The position numbers and the translations under genes were made by a program. From the sequence record MT446417.1: a stretch of DNA of 41,043 nt; one strand, 5' to 3'. The DNA is from Escherichia virus TH49. The notes beneath the pieces are model-generated. The model did no database searches. It saw only the letters and a program-made list of their open reading frames with translations, and was not told where the DNA came from. Of this stretch, positions 706-5,522 are shown one piece after another (the stretch's first letter is position 1; every line of letters starts with the position of its first letter).

Positions 706-894
706 ATGATTTACACCAAAGAGCCAGCTAACAAGGTATTCGTGTTCGTTACCGCTTATCGTGGCCATGAGTCGCAGGAAGTAAACGAGAAGATGCTCAA
801 GGAGGTGTCATTAGGTGGCACGCTGCAACGAGTGGACGCTCCTAAGGGTGAATGCTATTCAGTCATCAACGGGCAGTACTGGGAGGTGGTGTGA
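706..894 (+). CDS. Hypothetical early protein (62 aa)
   Basis: ATG with an upstream AAGGA ribosome-binding site; first ORF after the leader. Stop overlaps the next start (ATGA). No similarity recognised. Confidence 0.5.
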   Translation: MIYTKEPANKVFVFVTAYRGHESQEVNEKMLKEVSLGGTLQRVDAPKGECYSVINGQYWEVV

Positions 895-1094
895 TGAGTA
901 AGCTACTAGCAATATCCAAAATAACAGGGCAATGCACTGTAACATTACGGGAGTACCCACACGGTGAAATGGGGAGTACCTACATTGTGCGATATGGTAA
1001 GCAGGTAAAACACTGGGTCAACGAAGTACTAGCTCAGGAGGATTATCAATCATGCGTCGCACATCAATCAACTTGCGCTGGGTGGAATGACTAA
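894..1094 (+). CDS. Hypothetical early protein (66 aa)
   Basis: ATG at 894 preceded by GGAGGTGG; translationally coupled to the ORFs on either side. Confidence 0.5.
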   Translation: MSKLLAISKITGQCTVTLREYPHGEMGSTYIVRYGKQVKHWVNEVLAQEDYQSCVAHQSTCAGWND

Positions 1095-1333
1095 TGAAGC
1101 ATTACGGAATCACGCAGCAGAATCTCAAGAGCACTCGCAAGGCCATGAAGGTGGCCCTAATGTGTGTCAACCAGTCACCTGAAGATATGAACGCATGGCA
1201 CGGCTACTACATGGCCCAACTGGCCCAAACTTATCGCACACGCAAGGTAATGTATAATGTCACTCCCTCTCGTAATCATAGCGCTCCTGGGATATTCGCT
1301 CATCCTTATGGTGTTCGTGAAAGACTTTCATAA
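1094..1333 (+). CDS. Gene 0.6-like early protein (79 aa)
   Basis: The N-terminus MKHY... resembles the recalled T7 gp0.6 start (MMKHYVMP...). ATG overlaps the upstream stop. The 3' part overlaps ORF 1257..1463 in another frame. Confidence 0.45.
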   Translation: MKHYGITQQNLKSTRKAMKVALMCVNQSPEDMNAWHGYYMAQLAQTYRTRKVMYNVTPSRNHSAPGIFAHPYGVRERLS

Positions 1334-1463
1334 GGGTCTCAAGGTGCACAAAGCATCATTAAGTTACATGAAGTGGGGCTTCTTGCCTCGCTTTACTGTA
1401 CGGCTACCAAATGGCCGCTTTAAGGCAAACAAAGTGGGGATATTCTATGTCGCAACGCACTAA
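1257..1463 (+). CDS. Hypothetical small membrane protein (68 aa), overlapping the 0.6-like ORF
   Basis: Hydrophobic N-terminal stretch (LPLVIIALLGYSLILMVFV) and an AAGG motif 9 nt upstream. It is in the +1 frame relative to 1094..1333; it may be a separate gene or a frameshift partner. Confidence 0.35.
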   Translation: MSLPLVIIALLGYSLILMVFVKDFHKGLKVHKASLSYMKWGFLPRFTVRLPNGRFKANKVGIFYVATH

Positions 1464-1680
1464 CCTGAAGAAAGCCTTCAAGATTGCACGGATGGTGATG
1501 CCATACGGTGCCGGGGAGAAGCGCACAAAGCGGATACTTGCGGCAAGGGCTGGGAGATTACCAGCTCGGCAGCGCAAATGGGTAATGCAGCAAGTTTATA
1601 CAGAGCTTTACCATCCTGAGCGAATACCAGATGGCTACATACGGTCGCCTATAGGCTGGAAACGAGTAGCAACTAACTAA
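1447..1680 (+). CDS. Hypothetical basic early protein (77 aa)
   Basis: ATG at 1447 preceded by GTGGGGA; Arg/Lys-rich product; last ORF before the kinase gene. Confidence 0.5.
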   Translation: MSQRTNLKKAFKIARMVMPYGAGEKRTKRILAARAGRLPARQRKWVMQQVYTELYHPERIPDGYIRSPIGWKRVATN

Positions 1681-1713
1681 ACCACTAACACACACACTTA
1701 AGGAAACAACCTA

Positions 1714-2730
1714 ATGAACTACTTAGACATGCAAGACCGCTTAGACGTCATCCATCACCTGCCAATCTGTGAACTCGACAAGCGCCAGCCACTGCTGGTA
1801 GCACTCATTGCGGACATTGTGAACGCTGAGACGTCCAACGGTGACGATACGGATAGCGATTGGAGTCTGGAAAGTCAGGACTATTGGCAAACCCTGAAGA
1901 TTAAGGCCAAAGACGCTGGGTTTAACCTACTGGGCAATGGTCACTTCAGCGCAGCGTTTAAGCACGAGCTGCTACCGGGTAAGGTCATTAAGGTTGGCTT
2001 TAAGAAAGAAGACTCAGGGGCCGCCTACGTGGCTTTCTGCCGGATGCATCAAGGCCGGGTAGGGATTCCTAACGTCTATCACGTAGCGCGCCACGCTGGC
2101 TGCTATACGGTGGTATTGGACGAGCTGGAACCATGCAATCGCAGCGGTAACCACTTGCACGACCACTATGCAGACCTCGCGTATTACTTTGTCGAGTGTG
2201 ATTATGCACCTGAGGAGCACCACCAGAAGGACTTACCATTCATTGAGACGTGCCAGATGATTCGGGACTTCTTCTGTGGGATTGCGTCATTCGATATGCA
2301 CAGCGGTAACATCATGTTCACCAAGGACGGTAAGCCAGTGATTACCGACCCGGTGTCATTCTCAGCGGACCGGGACCGCGAGCCTTTCTCGCTGGAACCT
2401 GAGGAGCTACTTGCTGAGATTGAGCAGATAGCGCACGCCAAGATGATTGAACGCTGTAAGCGCAACAAGGCAAAGCGTGACCCGAACGGGGAGATGCGCA
2501 TCGCACGCCGGAAGGCCAATAAGGAACGTCGAGCACGCCGGAAGGCACACGCTCGGTGGCGTGAGGAGCGCGAACGTGAGCGCGAGCAGTATCACGTAGA
2601 CGCCCTAAAGGCAGACCTAGCGAGTATTGAGGTGCGCGTTCTAGCGTGGCAAATGGGACCCGGCCTAGCAATACAGCAGGGCAAGCCATTGCCAATCGAC
2701 AACTACCTTCAGGGTAGACTTATGGGTTAA
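1714..2730 (+). CDS. gp0.7: Serine/threonine protein kinase and host shutoff protein (T7 gp0.7 homolog)
   Basis: 338 aa. Long conserved blocks match the recalled T7 gp0.7 (LPICELDKRQ, GNGHFSAA, VIKVGFKKEDSGAAY, FCRM.QGR.GIPNVY, HAGCYTVVLD, ASFDMHSGNIMF, ITDPVSFS). Arg-rich C-terminus. Confidence 0.92.
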   Translation: MNYLDMQDRLDVIHHLPICELDKRQPLLVALIADIVNAETSNGDDTDSDWSLESQDYWQTLKIKAKDAGFNLLGNGHFSAAFKHELLPGKVIKVGFKKEDSGAAYVAFCRMHQGRVGIPNVYHVARHAGCYTVVLDELEPCNRSGNHLHDHYADLAYYFVECDYAPEEHHQKDLPFIETCQMIRDFFCGIASFDMHSGNIMFTKDGKPVITDPVSFSADRDREPFSLEPEELLAEIEQIAHAKMIERCKRNKAKRDPNGEMRIARRKANKERRARRKAHARWREEREREREQYHVDALKADLASIEVRVLAWQMGPGLAIQQGKPLPIDNYLQGRLMG

Positions 2731-2801: not shown

Positions 2802-5522
2802 ATGAACGCATTAAACATTGCACGTAATGACTTCTCAGAGATTGAACTAGCCGCTATTCCGTACAACATCCTCAGCGAGCACTACGGGGACAAGCTGGCA
2901 CGCGAGCAGTTAGCACTGGAGCATGAAGCGTACGAGCTGGGCGAGCAGCGTTTCCTGAAGATGTTAGAACGTCAGGTGAAAGCTGGTGAGTTCGCTGACA
3001 ACGTGGCCGCTAAACCGCTGGTCTTGACGTTGCACCCACAGTTAACCAAGCGTATTGACGACTGGAAGGAGGAGCAATCAAACGCTCGCGGTAAGAAGCC
3101 TCGCGCATACTACCCGATTAAGCACGGCGTTCCCTCAGAGTTGGCCCTTAGTATGGGCGCTGAGGTGCTCAAGGAGAAGCGCGGAGTGTCCAGTGAGGCA
3201 ATCGCACTGCTCACCATTAAGGTAGTCTTAGGGACGCTCACAGACGCCTCAAAGGCCACCATCCAGCAGGTATCCTCTCAGTTAGGCAAGGCGCTTGAGG
3301 ATGAGGCCCGCTTCGGGCGTATCCGTGAGCAGGAGGCCACCTACTTCAAGAAGAATGTAGCGGACCAGCTGGACAAGCGCGTGGGGCACGTGTACAAGAA
3401 GGCTTTCATGCAGGTTGTTGAGGCCGATATGATAGCCAAAGGGATGCTGGGCGGAGACAACTGGGCGAGCTGGAAGACCGACGAGCAGATGCACGTAGGG
3501 ACAAAGCTGCTGGAGCTGCTCATTGAGGGCACCGGTCTGGTGGAAATGACCAAGAACAAGATGGCCGATGGCTCCGACGATGTGACCAGTATGCAGATGG
3601 TCCAGCTGGCTCCGGCCTTCGTGGAACTCCTGAGCAAACGAGCGGGCGCACTCGCGGGTATCAGCCCGATGCACCAGCCGTGCGTAGTCCCTCCGAAACC
3701 TTGGGTCGAAACCGTAGGTGGTGGCTACTGGTCAGTCGGTCGTCGACCGCTGGCACTGGTTCGTACCCACTCCAAGAAGGCGCTTCGCCGCTATACTGAC
3801 GTGCACATGCCTGAGGTATACAAGGCGGTAAACCTCGCGCAAAACACACCGTGGAAGGTGAACAAGAAGGTGCTGGCGGTAGTCAACGAGATTATCAACT
3901 GGAAGCACTGCCCGGTTGCTGACGTCCCAGCGATTGAACGCGAAGAGTTACCACCACGCCCGGACGATATCGACACCAACGAGGTGGCACGTAAGGCGTG
4001 GCGTAAGGAGGCCGCAGCGGTCTACCGTAAGGACAAGGCCCGCCAGTCCCGCCGATTGTCGATGGAGTTCATGGTCGCACAGGCCAACAAGTTCGCTAAC
4101 CACAAGGCCATCTGGTTCCCGTACAACATGGACTGGCGCGGGCGTGTGTACGCTGTGAGCATGTTCAACCCACAGGGTAACGACATGACCAAGGGTATGC
4201 TGACGCTGGCCAAAGGTAAGCCAATCGGTCTCGATGGGTTTTACTGGCTGAAGATTCACGGTGCAAACTGTGCAGGCGTCGACAAGGTTCCCTTCCCTGA
4301 GCGCATCAAGTTCATCGAAGAGAACGAGGGCAACATTCTGGCGAGCGCAGCGGACCCACTGAATAACACTTGGTGGACTCAGCAGGATTCGCCGTTCTGT
4401 TTCTTAGCGTTCTGCTTTGAGTATGCAGGCGTTAAGCACCACGGACTGAATTACAACTGCTCACTACCGCTGGCATTCGATGGGTCATGCTCTGGGATTC
4501 AGCACTTCAGCGCGATGCTCCGCGATTCCATCGGTGGTCGTGCGGTTAACCTGCTGCCTTCTGATACCGTGCAGGATATCTACAAGATTGTGGCCGACAA
4601 GGTTAACGAGGTACTCCACCAGCACGCTATCAACGGGTCTCAGACGGTGGTCGAGCAGATTGCTGACAAAGAGACTGGCGAGTTTCACGAGAAGGTAACT
4701 CTGGGTGAGTCCGTACTGGCTGCGCAGTGGTTGCAGTATGGAGTGACCCGCAAGGTCACTAAGCGTTCGGTAATGACGTTGGCGTACGGTTCCAAAGAGT
4801 TCGGCTTCCGCCAGCAAGTTCTGGAAGATACCATTCAGCCTGCTATTGACAACGGCGAGGGCCTGATGTTTACGCACCCTAACCAAGCGGCTGGCTACAT
4901 GGCTAAGCTGATTTGGGACGCTGTGACCGTGACCGTAGTGGCCGCTGTCGAGGCAATGAACTGGCTGAAGTCTGCCGCTAAGCTGCTGGCTGCTGAAGTC
5001 AAGGACAAGAAGACCAAAGAGGTGCTGCGTAAGCGCTGCGCAATCCACTGGGTAACACCAGACGGCTTCCCGGTGTGGCAAGAGTACCGCAAGCAGAACC
5101 AAGCCCGCCTGAAGCTGGTCTTCCTCGGTCAGGCCAACGTCAAGATGACGTACAACACCGGGAAGGACTCCGAGATTGACGCGCACAAGCAGGAATCTGG
5201 CATCGCTCCCAACTTTGTACACTCACAGGATGGCAGCCACCTGCGCATGACCGTAGTGCACGCCAACGAGGTCTACGGGATTGACTCCTTCGCACTCATT
5301 CACGACTCCTTCGGGACCATTCCGGCTGACGCTGGGAATCTCTTTAAGGCAGTCCGCGAGACGATGGTCAAGACCTATGAGGACAACGATGTAATCGCCG
5401 ACTTCTACGACCAGTTCGCTGACCAGCTGCACGAGTCTCAACTGGACAAGATGCCAGCGGTCCCGGCCAAAGGTGACCTGAATCTGCGCGATATCTTAGA
5501 GTCTGACTTCGCGTTCGCATAA
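2802..5522 (+). CDS. gp1: Single-subunit DNA-dependent RNA polymerase (T7/T3 gp1 family)
   Basis: 906 aa, near-collinear with the recalled T7/T3 RNAP (AGISPMHQPCVVPPKPW, RRPLALVRTHSKK, FPYNMDWRGRVYAV, FDGSCSGIQHFSAML, MTLAYGSKEFGFRQQ, IHDSFGT, C-terminal ESDFAFA). Confidence 0.98.
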   Translation: MNALNIARNDFSEIELAAIPYNILSEHYGDKLAREQLALEHEAYELGEQRFLKMLERQVKAGEFADNVAAKPLVLTLHPQLTKRIDDWKEEQSNARGKKPRAYYPIKHGVPSELALSMGAEVLKEKRGVSSEAIALLTIKVVLGTLTDASKATIQQVSSQLGKALEDEARFGRIREQEATYFKKNVADQLDKRVGHVYKKAFMQVVEADMIAKGMLGGDNWASWKTDEQMHVGTKLLELLIEGTGLVEMTKNKMADGSDDVTSMQMVQLAPAFVELLSKRAGALAGISPMHQPCVVPPKPWVETVGGGYWSVGRRPLALVRTHSKKALRRYTDVHMPEVYKAVNLAQNTPWKVNKKVLAVVNEIINWKHCPVADVPAIEREELPPRPDDIDTNEVARKAWRKEAAAVYRKDKARQSRRLSMEFMVAQANKFANHKAIWFPYNMDWRGRVYAVSMFNPQGNDMTKGMLTLAKGKPIGLDGFYWLKIHGANCAGVDKVPFPERIKFIEENEGNILASAADPLNNTWWTQQDSPFCFLAFCFEYAGVKHHGLNYNCSLPLAFDGSCSGIQHFSAMLRDSIGGRAVNLLPSDTVQDIYKIVADKVNEVLHQHAINGSQTVVEQIADKETGEFHEKVTLGESVLAAQWLQYGVTRKVTKRSVMTLAYGSKEFGFRQQVLEDTIQPAIDNGEGLMFTHPNQAAGYMAKLIWDAVTVTVVAAVEAMNWLKSAAKLLAAEVKDKKTKEVLRKRCAIHWVTPDGFPVWQEYRKQNQARLKLVFLGQANVKMTYNTGKDSEIDAHKQESGIAPNFVHSQDGSHLRMTVVHANEVYGIDSFALIHDSFGTIPADAGNLFKAVRETMVKTYEDNDVIADFYDQFADQLHESQLDKMPAVPAKGDLNLRDILESDFAFA

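What the first reader, a model, noticed from the sequence alone, without database searches (positions are those of the whole stretch)
1094..1463. Two overlapping early ORFs in different frames: possible 0.6A/0.6B-style frameshift product
ORF 1094..1333 (gp0.6-like start) and ORF 1257..1463 overlap by 77 nt, the second in the +1 frame. T7 gene 0.6 is known to yield a second, longer product by frameshifting. The same arrangement here could give a fusion protein with a C-terminal membrane segment, or the second ORF may be initiated independently (AAGG 9 nt upstream).
Basis: inference. Interest (0 to 1): 0.4.

Follow-up and report, generated by a model that had tools for sequence, protein, structure and literature searches.

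The report
Two ordinary overlapping early phage genes
The two overlapping reading frames are real, but they are two separate early genes of a Klebsiella-type T7-like phage whose counterparts are already annotated in phage K11 (a gp0.4-like putative cell-division inhibitor and a gp0.6A-like small membrane protein), and neither the sequence nor 75 related loci point to a frameshift fusion.

Summary
ORF1 (1094..1333, 79 aa) and ORF2 (1257..1463, 68 aa) overlap by 77 nt, and ORF2 lies in the +1 frame.

The headline reading, a T7 0.6A/0.6B-style frameshift fusion, is not supported:
- ORF1 belongs to the gp0.4 family (T7 FtsZ inhibitor; named gp0.4 in phage K11), not gp0.6.
- ORF2 is the T3 "gene 0.6" / K11 "gp0.6A" small membrane protein.
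- In 75 related loci ORF2 nearly always has its own start (ATG 71, GTG 4) and an SD-like motif (72/75).
- In 16 of those loci no upstream ORF overlaps ORF2 (T3-like phages, for example).
- The overlap length follows the ORF2 N-terminal allele: 23 nt in most loci, then 26, 59, 77, 86 or 92. The ORF1 tail is not conserved.
- The ORF1 frame stays open because a transmembrane-coding segment lacks the AAN/AGN/GAN codons that a stop in that frame needs. Synonymous recoding of ORF2 gives an overlap of at least 77 nt in 78% of trials.
- I found no conserved slippery site, no stimulatory RNA structure, no dual-coding signal and no natural ORF1-ORF2 fusion protein.

The T7 0.6A/0.6B junction instead aligns with the ORF2/ORF3 overlap at 1447..1463. 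Verdict: ordinary, already annotated, low interest.

The parts
1094..1333 (+). ORF1, a gp0.4-family early gene (79 aa, 9.2 kDa). The conserved core is encoded by 1094..1255 (ending ...TYRTRKVMY). Nucleotides 1256..1330 encode a non-conserved 25-aa tail, followed by the stop TAA at 1331-1333.
   Evidence: It matches phrog_5058 at E 2.5e-24, but only residues 1-55 match the 49-position profile. hhalign of the ORF1 family against T7 gp0.4 gives probability 95%, E 2.7e-8. There are PHROG cross-hits with T7 gp0.4. The K11 RefSeq record names the homologue gp0.4.
1257..1463 (+). ORF2, a small membrane protein of the T3 'gene 0.6' / K11 'gp0.6A' family (68 aa, 7.8 kDa). It has an N-terminal hydrophobic helix and a basic C-terminal domain.
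   Evidence: It matches phrog_2385 at E 3.1e-27. T3 gene 0.6 falls in the same PHROG at E 9e-30. The K11 homologue is named gp0.6A. Alignment A4 shows invariant C-terminal residues.
1263..1319 (+). Coding sequence for the ORF2 transmembrane segment (LPLVIIALLGYSLILMVFV). It lies entirely inside the overlap.
   Evidence: The 19-residue Kyte-Doolittle mean is 2.70. The segment is hydrophobic in every allele seen.
1257..1333 (+). The 77-nt overlap of ORF1 and ORF2.
   Evidence: The overlap is read directly. In relatives it measures 23, 26, 59, 77, 86 or 92 nt.
1244..1248 (+). SD-like AAGGT for ORF2, embedded in the conserved R-K-V-M codons of ORF1.
   Evidence: An SD-like tetramer sits at -16..-4 in 72 of 75 related loci (AAGG in 61). 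The duplex energy with the anti-SD is -3.9 kcal/mol, which is weak.
1248..1250 (+). TAA in the ORF2 frame. It sets the 5' limit of any frameshift window.
   Evidence: Read directly from the sequence and from the upstream-stop distances.
1265..1268 (+). CCC_U, a codon in the ORF1 frame that could re-pair in the +1 frame. It is a non-conserved candidate slip site.
   Evidence: Found. It occurs only in the 77/86-nt allele.
1289..1294 (+). GGG_AUA, a +1 re-pairable codon followed by a rare AUA codon. It is a non-conserved candidate slip site and is also where locus L015 carries a 2-nt G insertion.
   Evidence: The site is reported. ATA is used 3.3 times per 1000 codons in this phage. The L015 insertion is shown.
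1325..1328 (+). CUU_U, which has the prfB-type P-site codon but is followed by a sense codon (UCA) and has no SD-like stimulator 3 nt upstream.
   Evidence: Read from the sequence. In the 23-nt allele this position lies outside ORF1.
1447..1680 (+). ORF3, T3 gene 0.65 family (77 aa). Its first 17 nt (1447..1463) overlap the end of ORF2 in the +1 frame. This junction, not the ORF1/ORF2 overlap, is the counterpart of the T7 0.6A/0.6B junction.
   Evidence: ORF3 matches phrog_23914 and phrog_10380. BLASTP against the second T7 frame gives MSQRTN-LKK versus MTERTDGLKK at E 0.071. At this position 51 of the 54 loci with a long +1 frame have an ATG, and only 4 of the 21 without one do.

Best explanation
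ORF1 and ORF2 are two separate class-I (early) genes of a Przondovirus, a K11/KP32-type T7-like phage.

ORF1 is a gp0.4-family protein. By homology to T7 Gp0.4 it is most likely an FtsZ-binding cell-division inhibitor.

ORF2 is the T3 gp0.6 / K11 gp0.6A-type small protein, with one N-terminal membrane helix and a basic C-terminal domain. ORF2 is translated from its own ATG at 1257, using a weak SD (AAGGT, 1244-1248) that sits inside the conserved last codons of ORF1.

ORF1 has no stop before it enters ORF2. It therefore runs on in the -1 frame of ORF2 until the first stop that frame offers. A stop in that frame needs an ORF2 codon ending in T followed by a codon starting AA, AG or GA, that is, a polar or charged residue. 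A transmembrane segment has almost none of these. In this allele ORF1 consequently reads 25 extra, non-conserved residues and ends at the CAT-AAG (His-Lys) codons just after the helix. In the commoner allele an ATT-AGC pair stops ORF1 after 23 nt.

Shown here: the gene families, the variable overlap, the conserved start and SD, and the lack of frameshift signals. Inferred: the protein functions, and independent initiation as the actual route of ORF2 synthesis.
For: - Gene families.
- Published annotation: K11 RefSeq annotates gp0.4 and gp0.6A as two CDS with a 23-nt overlap. phi1_146017, K80PH1317b and RCIP0024 do the same.
- Survey of 75 loci: the overlap is 23 nt in 43 loci, 26 in 3, 59 in 1, 77 in 8, 86 in 1 and 92 in 2. 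Sixteen loci have no overlapping upstream ORF. These include T3-like phages, where ORF2 directly follows the 0.3 gene, and four loci with a GTG start behind an AGGAGG/GGAGG/AGAGG-type SD.
- ORF2 start: ATG in 71 loci and GTG in 4. An SD-like motif is present in 72 of 75.
- ORF1 tail: it differs completely between alleles (DNPVRN, GPVELRS, DTPDSRP..., NVTPSRNHSAPGIFAHPYGVRERLS). Even within the 77-nt allele, L014 has lost the stop, giving 86 nt.
- Recoding simulation: overlap of 77 nt or more in 78% of synonymous recodings of ORF2, against 14.6% for arbitrary positions in the polymerase and kinase genes.
- No dual-coding signal: third-position diversity in the TM-coding segment is equally low where ORF1 overlaps it (0.053) and where it does not (0.057).
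- No frameshift signals: there is no X_XXY_YYZ heptamer in the overlap. Two +1 re-pairable codons are present against about 1 expected. The RNA fold z-score is -0.05.
- No natural fusion: no hit covers both halves of a hypothetical fusion among 5.8 billion protein clusters; maximum coverage is 54%.
Against: - The ORF2 SD is the weakest of the early genes tested (-3.9 kcal/mol against -5.5 to -11.5), so initiation may be inefficient or may depend on ORF1 translation.
- Within the nine sequences of the 77-nt allele, the substitution counts do not separate the frames. ORF2 has 4 synonymous and 5 non-synonymous changes; ORF1 has 3 and 6.
- The allele does contain three codons at which a low-level +1 slip is chemically possible (CCC_U, GGG_AUA, CUU_U).
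- One metagenomic contig (L015) carries a 2-nt insertion that fuses the two frames.
- No expression data exist for this phage.
Confidence: 0.85

Rival explanations
1. Programmed +1 ribosomal frameshifting within 1251..1330 makes a functional ORF1-ORF2 fusion of 122 aa (about 14.2 kDa), in the manner proposed for T7 0.6B.
For: ORF2 is in the +1 frame, as the second T7 0.6 frame is relative to 0.6A. The 77-nt allele contains CCC_U, GGG_AUA and CUU_U. The +1 relation holds in every relative that has an ORF1 homologue.
Against: The +1 relation is inherited together with one conserved junction block (AAGGTAATGTATG), so it is not independent evidence. Forty-five of the 46 loci with a 23- or 26-nt overlap have no +1 re-pairable codon in the permitted window. 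No SD-like stimulator lies 3 nt upstream of any candidate, none of the candidates has a stop codon in the A site, and no RNA structure is present. The ORF1 tail and stop position are not conserved. ORF2 exists without ORF1 in T3-like phages. No fused protein is present in the databases searched. ORF1 and ORF2 are not homologues of T7 0.6A/0.6B.
Confidence: 0.03
2. Non-programmed, low-level +1 slippage at CCC_U (1265) or GGG_AUA (1289) yields trace amounts of fusion protein with no selected function.
For: Both codons can re-pair in +1. AUA is rare in this phage, at 3.3 per 1000 codons. That such contexts slip at low frequency in enterobacteria is general knowledge, not something tested here.
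Against: Such codon contexts make up 3.6% of codons in this phage's long genes, so about one is expected in any 27 codons. There is no conservation outside one allele. This rival is compatible with the best explanation rather than opposed to it.
Confidence: 0.1
3. ORF2 translation is coupled to ORF1. Ribosomes translating or terminating ORF1 open the weak ORF2 ribosome-binding site, or re-initiate at it, so the overlap serves to set the ratio of the two proteins.
For: The ORF2 SD is weak (-3.9 kcal/mol). The whole early block is chained by 1-nt and 17-nt overlaps: 894, 1094 and 1447. The junction block is conserved across Przondoviruses. No promoter-like site lies upstream of ORF2.
Against: The ORF1 stop lies 77 nt downstream of the ORF2 start here, which is far for back-scanning re-initiation. 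No stable structure sequesters the RBS (z -0.05). ORF2 homologues function in contexts without ORF1.
Confidence: 0.2
4. The 25-residue tail of ORF1 in this allele is a functional, allele-specific C-terminal extension of the gp0.4-like protein, which would make the overlap true dual coding.
For: The segment 1263..1308 is invariant except for a single substitution (G to T at 1298 in L006) across the nine sequences that carry this allele. K11PH164C1 annotates the 79-aa form.
Against: The same low synonymous diversity is seen in the equivalent TM-coding segment of the 23-nt allele, where ORF1 does not overlap it (0.057 against 0.053). The tail is absent or unrelated in the other alleles. The PHROG profile for the family ends near residue 55-60. 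L014 has lost the stop codon.
Confidence: 0.05

Closest known systems
Klebsiella phage K11 genes 0.4 and 0.6A (RefSeq NC_011043)
   Same: Same two gene families, same order and same +1 relation. The junction block is the same, with the SD for 0.6A inside the last codons of 0.4. They are annotated as two independent CDS.
   Different: K11 carries the commoner 0.6A N-terminal allele, so gp0.4 stops 23 nt into 0.6A rather than 77 nt. K11 has the short 48-aa gp0.4 variant and lacks ORF3.
T7 genes 0.6A / 'possible gene 0.6B' (NC_001604)
   Same: A second frame in +1 overlaps the end of a short early ORF upstream of gene 0.7.
   Different: There is no detectable similarity to ORF1 or ORF2 overall, and the PHROG family differs (phrog_8393). 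The T7 junction aligns with the window's ORF2/ORF3 junction at 1447-1463, with the same 17-nt overlap, not with 1257-1333. The T7 record itself.6B only 'possible'.
T3 genes 0.6 and 0.65 (NC_003298)
   Same: T3 gp0.6 (65 aa) is a clear homologue of ORF2, and gp0.65 of ORF3. They overlap by 14 nt (record 1614..1627) and are annotated as separate genes.
   Different: T3 has no gp0.4 homologue (the paper PMC13423816 says the same). Its gene 0.6 stands alone behind an RNase III site, with no upstream overlapping ORF.
T7 Gp0.4, FtsZ inhibitor
   Same: The ORF1 family aligns with it over 40 columns, sharing the YG(L/I)T...MAQL...Y..K pattern, at probability 95%. PHROG hits are reciprocal.
   Different: Pairwise BLASTP is not significant. 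ORF1 has a 12-residue insertion and the 25-residue tail. FtsZ binding has not been tested for any Klebsiella-phage member.
prfB-type programmed +1 frameshift (CUU_UGA with an upstream SD)
   Same: A CUU_U sequence is present at 1325-1328, and the second frame is +1.
   Different: The A-site codon is a sense codon (UCA), no SD-like element lies 3 nt upstream, and the site is not conserved. In most relatives it lies outside ORF1.

Membership tests
T7 0.6A/0.6B arrangement | The upstream ORF is a homologue of T7 0.6A. | tested here: not met
   BLASTP of ORF1 against T7 0.6A gives no alignment. T7 0.6A belongs to phrog_8393 and ORF1 to phrog_5058.
T7 0.6A/0.6B arrangement | The second frame is a homologue of the 0.6B-specific part. 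| tested here: not met
   BLASTP of ORF2 against T7 882..1070 gives no alignment. It is ORF3, not ORF2, that shows the weak N-terminal match (E 0.071).
T7 0.6A/0.6B arrangement | The second ORF is in the +1 frame and overlaps the end of the first. | tested here: met
   1257-1094 = 163, which is +1. In T7, 882-737 = 145, also +1. The geometry alone is shared.
T7 0.6A/0.6B arrangement | The junction is positionally and sequence-wise homologous to the T7 junction. | tested here: not met
   The T7 junction CTATGACAGAACGCACTGA aligns with window 1445-1463 (the ORF2/ORF3 junction), not with 1257-1333.
Programmed +1 ribosomal frameshift | A slippery P-site codon paired with a slow A-site codon (a stop or a rare codon). 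| tested here: inconclusive
   GGG_AUA (1289) fits loosely. CCC_U and CUU_U are followed by ordinary sense codons. The number of such contexts is close to chance: 2 observed against about 1 expected.
Programmed +1 ribosomal frameshift | A stimulatory element, either an SD-like sequence about 3 nt upstream or a downstream structure. | tested here: not met
   No SD-like sequence lies next to any candidate. The fold of 1215-1375 is no better than shuffled sequence (z -0.05).
Programmed +1 ribosomal frameshift | The shift site is conserved among relatives. | tested here: not met
   Forty-five of the 46 loci with a 23- or 26-nt overlap have no re-pairable codon in the window.
Programmed +1 ribosomal frameshift | The trans-frame protein is detected. 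| not testable with these tools
   This needs mass spectrometry, western blots or reporters.
gp0.4 family (ORF1) | Sequence or profile similarity to T7 Gp0.4 and to the K11 gene named gp0.4. | tested here: met
   hhalign gives 95% probability, E 2.7e-8. T7 gp0.4 hits phrog_5058 at E 9e-5, and short ORF1-family variants hit the T7 PHROG 7202 at E 1.3e-6 to 2.9e-4. The K11 annotation agrees.
gp0.4 family (ORF1) | The protein binds and inhibits FtsZ. | not testable with these tools
   This is known for T7 Gp0.4 only (PMC13423816).
T3 gp0.6 / K11 gp0.6A family (ORF2) | Full-length similarity, with an N-terminal hydrophobic helix and the conserved PRFTVR..NGRFKANKVG..ATH C-terminus. | tested here: met
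   Both ORF2 and T3 gp0.6 match phrog_2385. Alignment A4 shows 18 invariant columns. The Kyte-Doolittle value is 2.70.

The most novel reading that the evidence does not exclude
In the subset of Przondoviruses that carry the 77-nt allele, ribosomes slip +1 at CCC_U (1265) or GGG_AUA (1289) often enough to make a 122-aa protein. That protein would join the gp0.4-like FtsZ-binding domain to the gp0.6A membrane helix and tail, giving a membrane-tethered division inhibitor encoded by an allele-specific recoding event.
Probability: 0.03. Interest if true: 0.45.

Novelty: already known. Interest (0 to 1): 0.08.

Why it matters
It matters little as a discovery. The result mainly corrects gene labels in this window:
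- ORF1 is gp0.4-like.
- ORF2 is gp0.6A-like.
- ORF3 is 0.65-like.

It also explains why long out-of-frame overlaps arise passively when an upstream gene runs into a sequence that codes for a membrane helix. Finally, it shows that anyone wishing to revisit the old T7 0.6B frameshift proposal in this phage group should look at the 17-nt ORF2/ORF3 junction. Even there, an ATG at the junction goes with presence of the downstream gene (51 of 54 loci with a long frame, 4 of 21 without), which favours independent initiation.

Tried and rejected
- **Homology to T7 0.6A/0.6B.** BLASTP of ORF1 and ORF2 against T7 0.6A, the second T7 0.6 frame and T7 gp0.4 gave nothing significant pairwise. Only profile methods linked ORF1 to gp0.4.
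- **Curated family libraries.** Pfam-A and NCBIfam gave no family for ORF1, ORF2 or ORF3. Database homologues of ORF1 carry a precomputed PF26807.1 tag that the local Pfam copy does not contain.
- **Solved structures.** A profile search of the PDB with the ORF1 family found no hit.
- **Dual-coding constraint.** Third-position variation looked depleted in the overlap. I rejected this after the control: the non-overlapped TM segment of the 23-nt allele is equally depleted.
- **RNA structure.** A fold of 1215-1375, looking for an element that would stimulate frameshifting or hide the RBS, was no better than shuffled sequence.
- **Internal promoter.** No sigma-70-like promoter lies upstream of ORF2.
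- **Natural fusions.** A search with a hypothetical fusion protein found no hit covering both halves.
- **L015.** I considered its in-frame fusion as support for a fusion product. I set it aside because the ORF1 part there lacks its N-terminal half and the fusion comes from a 2-nt insertion in a G run on a single metagenomic contig.
- **Literature.** Searches found no experimental treatment of T7 0.6B. The large frameshifting review (PMC5009743) does not mention gene 0.6 in the 300,000 of its 429,602 characters that are held.

Full report
**What the window is.** The 906-aa RNA polymerase at 2802..5522, the gp0.7-type kinase at 1714..2730 and the phage-type promoters at the left end mark a T7-like phage. 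A megablast of 1000..1720 finds 331 phage records, almost all Klebsiella phages of the genus Przondovirus. One is a 100% match, the unannotated record 'Escherichia virus TH50'.

**The observation.** ORF1 (1094..1333, 79 aa) and ORF2 (1257..1463, 68 aa) exist as described. They overlap by 77 nt, and ORF2 is in the +1 frame. AAGG lies at 1244-1247, nine bases before ATG 1257. The ORF2 frame carries a TAA at 1248-1250, so a shift from ORF1 into ORF2 could only happen between 1251 and 1330. The hydrophobic helix of ORF2 (residues 3-21, nt 1263-1319) lies wholly inside the overlap. A fusion would keep it only if the shift came in the first few codons.

**What the two ORFs are.** PHROGs puts ORF1 in phrog_5058 (E 2.5e-24). 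Only residues 1-55 match that 49-position profile, so the last 25 residues are not part of the family. ORF2 falls in phrog_2385 (E 3.1e-27).

- The T3 'gene 0.6 protein' (65 aa) belongs to the same PHROG as ORF2 (E 9e-30). T3 gene 0.65 matches the families of ORF3, 1447..1680.
- The K11 RefSeq record names the two homologues gp0.4 (48 aa) and gp0.6A (65 aa) and annotates them as separate CDS with a 23-nt overlap.
- A profile of eight ORF1-family variants aligns with T7 Gp0.4 over 40 columns at 95% probability, E 2.7e-8. PHROG hits are reciprocal.
- T7 Gp0.4 is an FtsZ inhibitor, and T3 lacks a homologue (PMC13423816).
- T7 0.6A and the second T7 0.6 frame belong to a different PHROG (8393) and show no BLASTP similarity to ORF1 or ORF2.

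So the 'gp0.6-like start' of ORF1 is only the tetrapeptide MKHY.

**Where the T7 0.6A/0.6B junction really maps.** In T7 the second frame (L005 882..1073) is +1 relative to 0.6A and overlaps it by 17 nt. A DNA alignment places the T7 junction CTATGACAGAACGCACTGA opposite window 1445-1463, CTATGTCGCAACGCACTAA. That is the ORF2/ORF3 junction, which also has a 17-nt overlap and a +1 frame.

Two weaker matches agree with this placement:
- The last 13 residues of T7 0.6A align with the ORF2 C-terminus (KINKIGSGYDRTH against KANKVGIFYVATH; hhalign E 0.0078, low probability).
- ORF3 starts MSQRTN-LKK, against MTERTDGLKK in T7.

These protein matches are weak. The case rests on position plus the DNA alignment.

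Across the related loci, 51 of the 54 with a long ORF3-type frame have an ATG at this position. The 21 loci without such a frame mostly have ACA or ATA there. This favours independent initiation of ORF3 as well.

**Comparative survey of the ORF1/ORF2 junction.** One IMG/VR scan with ORF2 returned 69 loci. With the GenBank loci fetched by then and the window itself, 75 loci could be analysed.

| Arrangement | Loci |
|---|---|
| 23-nt overlap | 43 |
| 26-nt overlap | 3 |
| 59-nt overlap | 1 |
| 77-nt overlap (including the window) | 8 |
| 86-nt overlap | 1 |
| 92-nt overlap | 2 |
| No overlapping upstream ORF | 16 |
| In-frame fusion (L015) | 1 |

- The 16 loci with no overlapping upstream ORF include T3-like phages, where ORF2 follows the 0.3 gene directly (TAAcATG). 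They also include four loci with a GTG start behind an AGGAGG/GGAGG/AGAGG-type SD, and one locus where the gp0.4-like gene ends 59 nt upstream.
- ORF2 starts with ATG in 71 loci and GTG in 4. An SD-like tetramer is present in 72 of 75.
- The overlap length follows the ORF2 N-terminal allele. The commoner allele reads ATG ATA ACC CTG TTC GTA ATT AGC, and its ATT-AGC pair gives ORF1 a TAG after 23 nt. The window allele reads ATG TCA CTC CCT CTC GTA ATC ATA at the same place, so the stop is missing.
- The ORF1 tails are unrelated in length and sequence: DNPVRN, GPVELRS, DTPDSRPAGLRTDSNSIH and NVTPSRNHSAPGIFAHPYGVRERLS.
- Within the 77-nt allele, L014 has changed the stop TAA to CAA, which lengthens the overlap to 86 nt.

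**Why the frame stays open.** ORF1 reads the -1 frame of ORF2. A stop there needs an ORF2 codon ending in T followed by a codon that begins AA, AG or GA (Asn, Lys, Ser-AGY, Arg-AGR, Asp or Glu). A membrane helix has almost none of these residues.

With the ORF2 protein held fixed and codons drawn from this phage's own usage, the overlap is never shorter than 41 nt and reaches 77 nt or more in 78% of 20,000 recodings. At arbitrary positions in the polymerase and kinase genes the same frame stays open for 77 nt or more in only 14.6% of cases. The 77-nt overlap is therefore what the ORF2 sequence makes likely, not a sign of selection.

**Tests for frameshift signals.**
- The overlap has no X_XXY_YYZ heptamer.
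- In the ORF1 frame, two codons can re-pair their first two bases in +1: CCC_U at 1265 and GGG_A at 1289, the latter followed by the rare AUA. A CUU_U lies at 1325.
- Such contexts make up 3.6% of codons in the phage's long genes, so about one is expected in 27 codons.
- None has an SD-like element 3 nt upstream or a stop codon in the A site.
- The RNA around the overlap folds no better than shuffled sequence (z -0.05).
- Forty-five of the 46 relatives with a 23- or 26-nt overlap have no re-pairable codon at all in the permitted window.

**Test for dual coding.** Third-position variation of ORF2 is lower in the overlap than downstream. The control removes the signal. In the 23-nt allele the equivalent TM-coding segment is not overlapped by ORF1, yet it is equally depleted (pi3 0.057 against 0.053, with 0.17-0.20 downstream). 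The nine substitutions within the 77-nt allele do not separate the frames: ORF2 has 4 synonymous and 5 non-synonymous changes, and ORF1 has 3 and 6.

**Search for natural fusions.** A hypothetical 122-aa fusion was searched against 5.8 billion protein clusters. It found only separate ORF1-type and ORF2-type proteins, with coverage of 54% or less.

One IMG/VR contig (L015) has a 2-nt insertion in the G run at the GGG_AUA site that joins the two frames. Its ORF1 part lacks the N-terminal half, however, and its own ORF2 start then gives a truncated peptide of about 21 residues. This looks like damage or a sequencing error rather than design.

**Expression context.** No sigma-70-like promoter or terminator lies near ORF2. 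The early genes from 706 to 1680 are chained by 1-, 1-, 77- and 17-nt overlaps. The ORF2 SD is weak (-3.9 kcal/mol against -5.5 to -11.5 for its neighbours). Some dependence of ORF2 translation on ORF1 translation cannot be excluded.

**Conclusion.** The finding describes a real overlap of two independent genes whose K11 counterparts are already annotated, gp0.4-like and gp0.6A-like. The unusual length of the overlap in this allele is a passive result of an upstream gene running into a sequence that codes for a membrane helix. Independent initiation of ORF2 at ATG 1257 is the best-supported mechanism (confidence about 0.85). A programmed frameshift fusion is unlikely (about 0.03). The protein functions are inferred from family membership only: FtsZ inhibition for ORF1, and an envelope-associated role for ORF2.

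Noticed in passing
window 1447..1463 (ORF2/ORF3 junction): The 17-nt, +1-frame overlap of ORF2 with ORF3 (T3 gene 0.65 family) aligns at the DNA level with the T7 0.6A/0.6B junction. Among related loci, 51 of the 54 with a long downstream frame have an ATG here, and only 4 of the 21 without one do.
   Followed up: partly
window 706..894: The gene 0.3 (SAM hydrolase) homologue is cut down to 62 aa by an in-frame internal deletion. Residues 1-32 and 31-61 match residues 1-32 and 124-154 of the 155-aa K11 protein. It is probably inactive.
   Followed up: partly
L015 1093..1374 (IMGVR_UViG_3300045988_000688): A 2-nt insertion in a G run (CCTGGGGGGTAT against CCTGGGATAT) fuses a 5'-truncated gp0.4-like frame to the C-terminal 57 residues of the ORF2 homologue. 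The neighbouring ORF3 is intact and the kinase gene aligns in one frame up to the end of the locus.
   Followed up: partly
protein P0022 (119 aa, 924-nt Logan contig): This is a natural in-frame fusion of the first 40 residues of an ORF2 homologue to the ORF3 frame, a T7-0.6B-like product. It is seen once, on a very short contig, so it may be an indel error.
   Followed up: no
protein P0018 (74 aa): A deletion variant joins the first 30 or so residues of the SAM hydrolase directly to the KGLKVHK... C-terminal domain of the ORF2 homologue. This suggests that deletions in this early region recur at short LKG/LKE microhomologies, like the one seen in the window's own 0.3 gene.
   Followed up: no
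window about 1094..1200 against 1201 onward: Most GenBank relatives match the window only from about 1201 onward. The gp0.4-like gene occurs as at least three N-terminal alleles (two 54-aa types and a 42-aa type), recombined onto the same conserved C-terminus ...MAQLAQTYRTRKVMY.
   Followed up: partly
window 1094..1333 and its database homologues: Homologues of ORF1 carry a precomputed Pfam tag, PF26807.1. The local Pfam-A copy returns no family for ORF1, so I could not check what that family is called.
   Followed up: no
window 1411..1446: The ORF3 frame is open from an upstream ATG at 1411, which would give an 89-aa version. The kpssk3 RefSeq record annotates that longer form, while other records use the 77-aa form starting at the position of 1447. 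The true start is unsettled.
   Followed up: no
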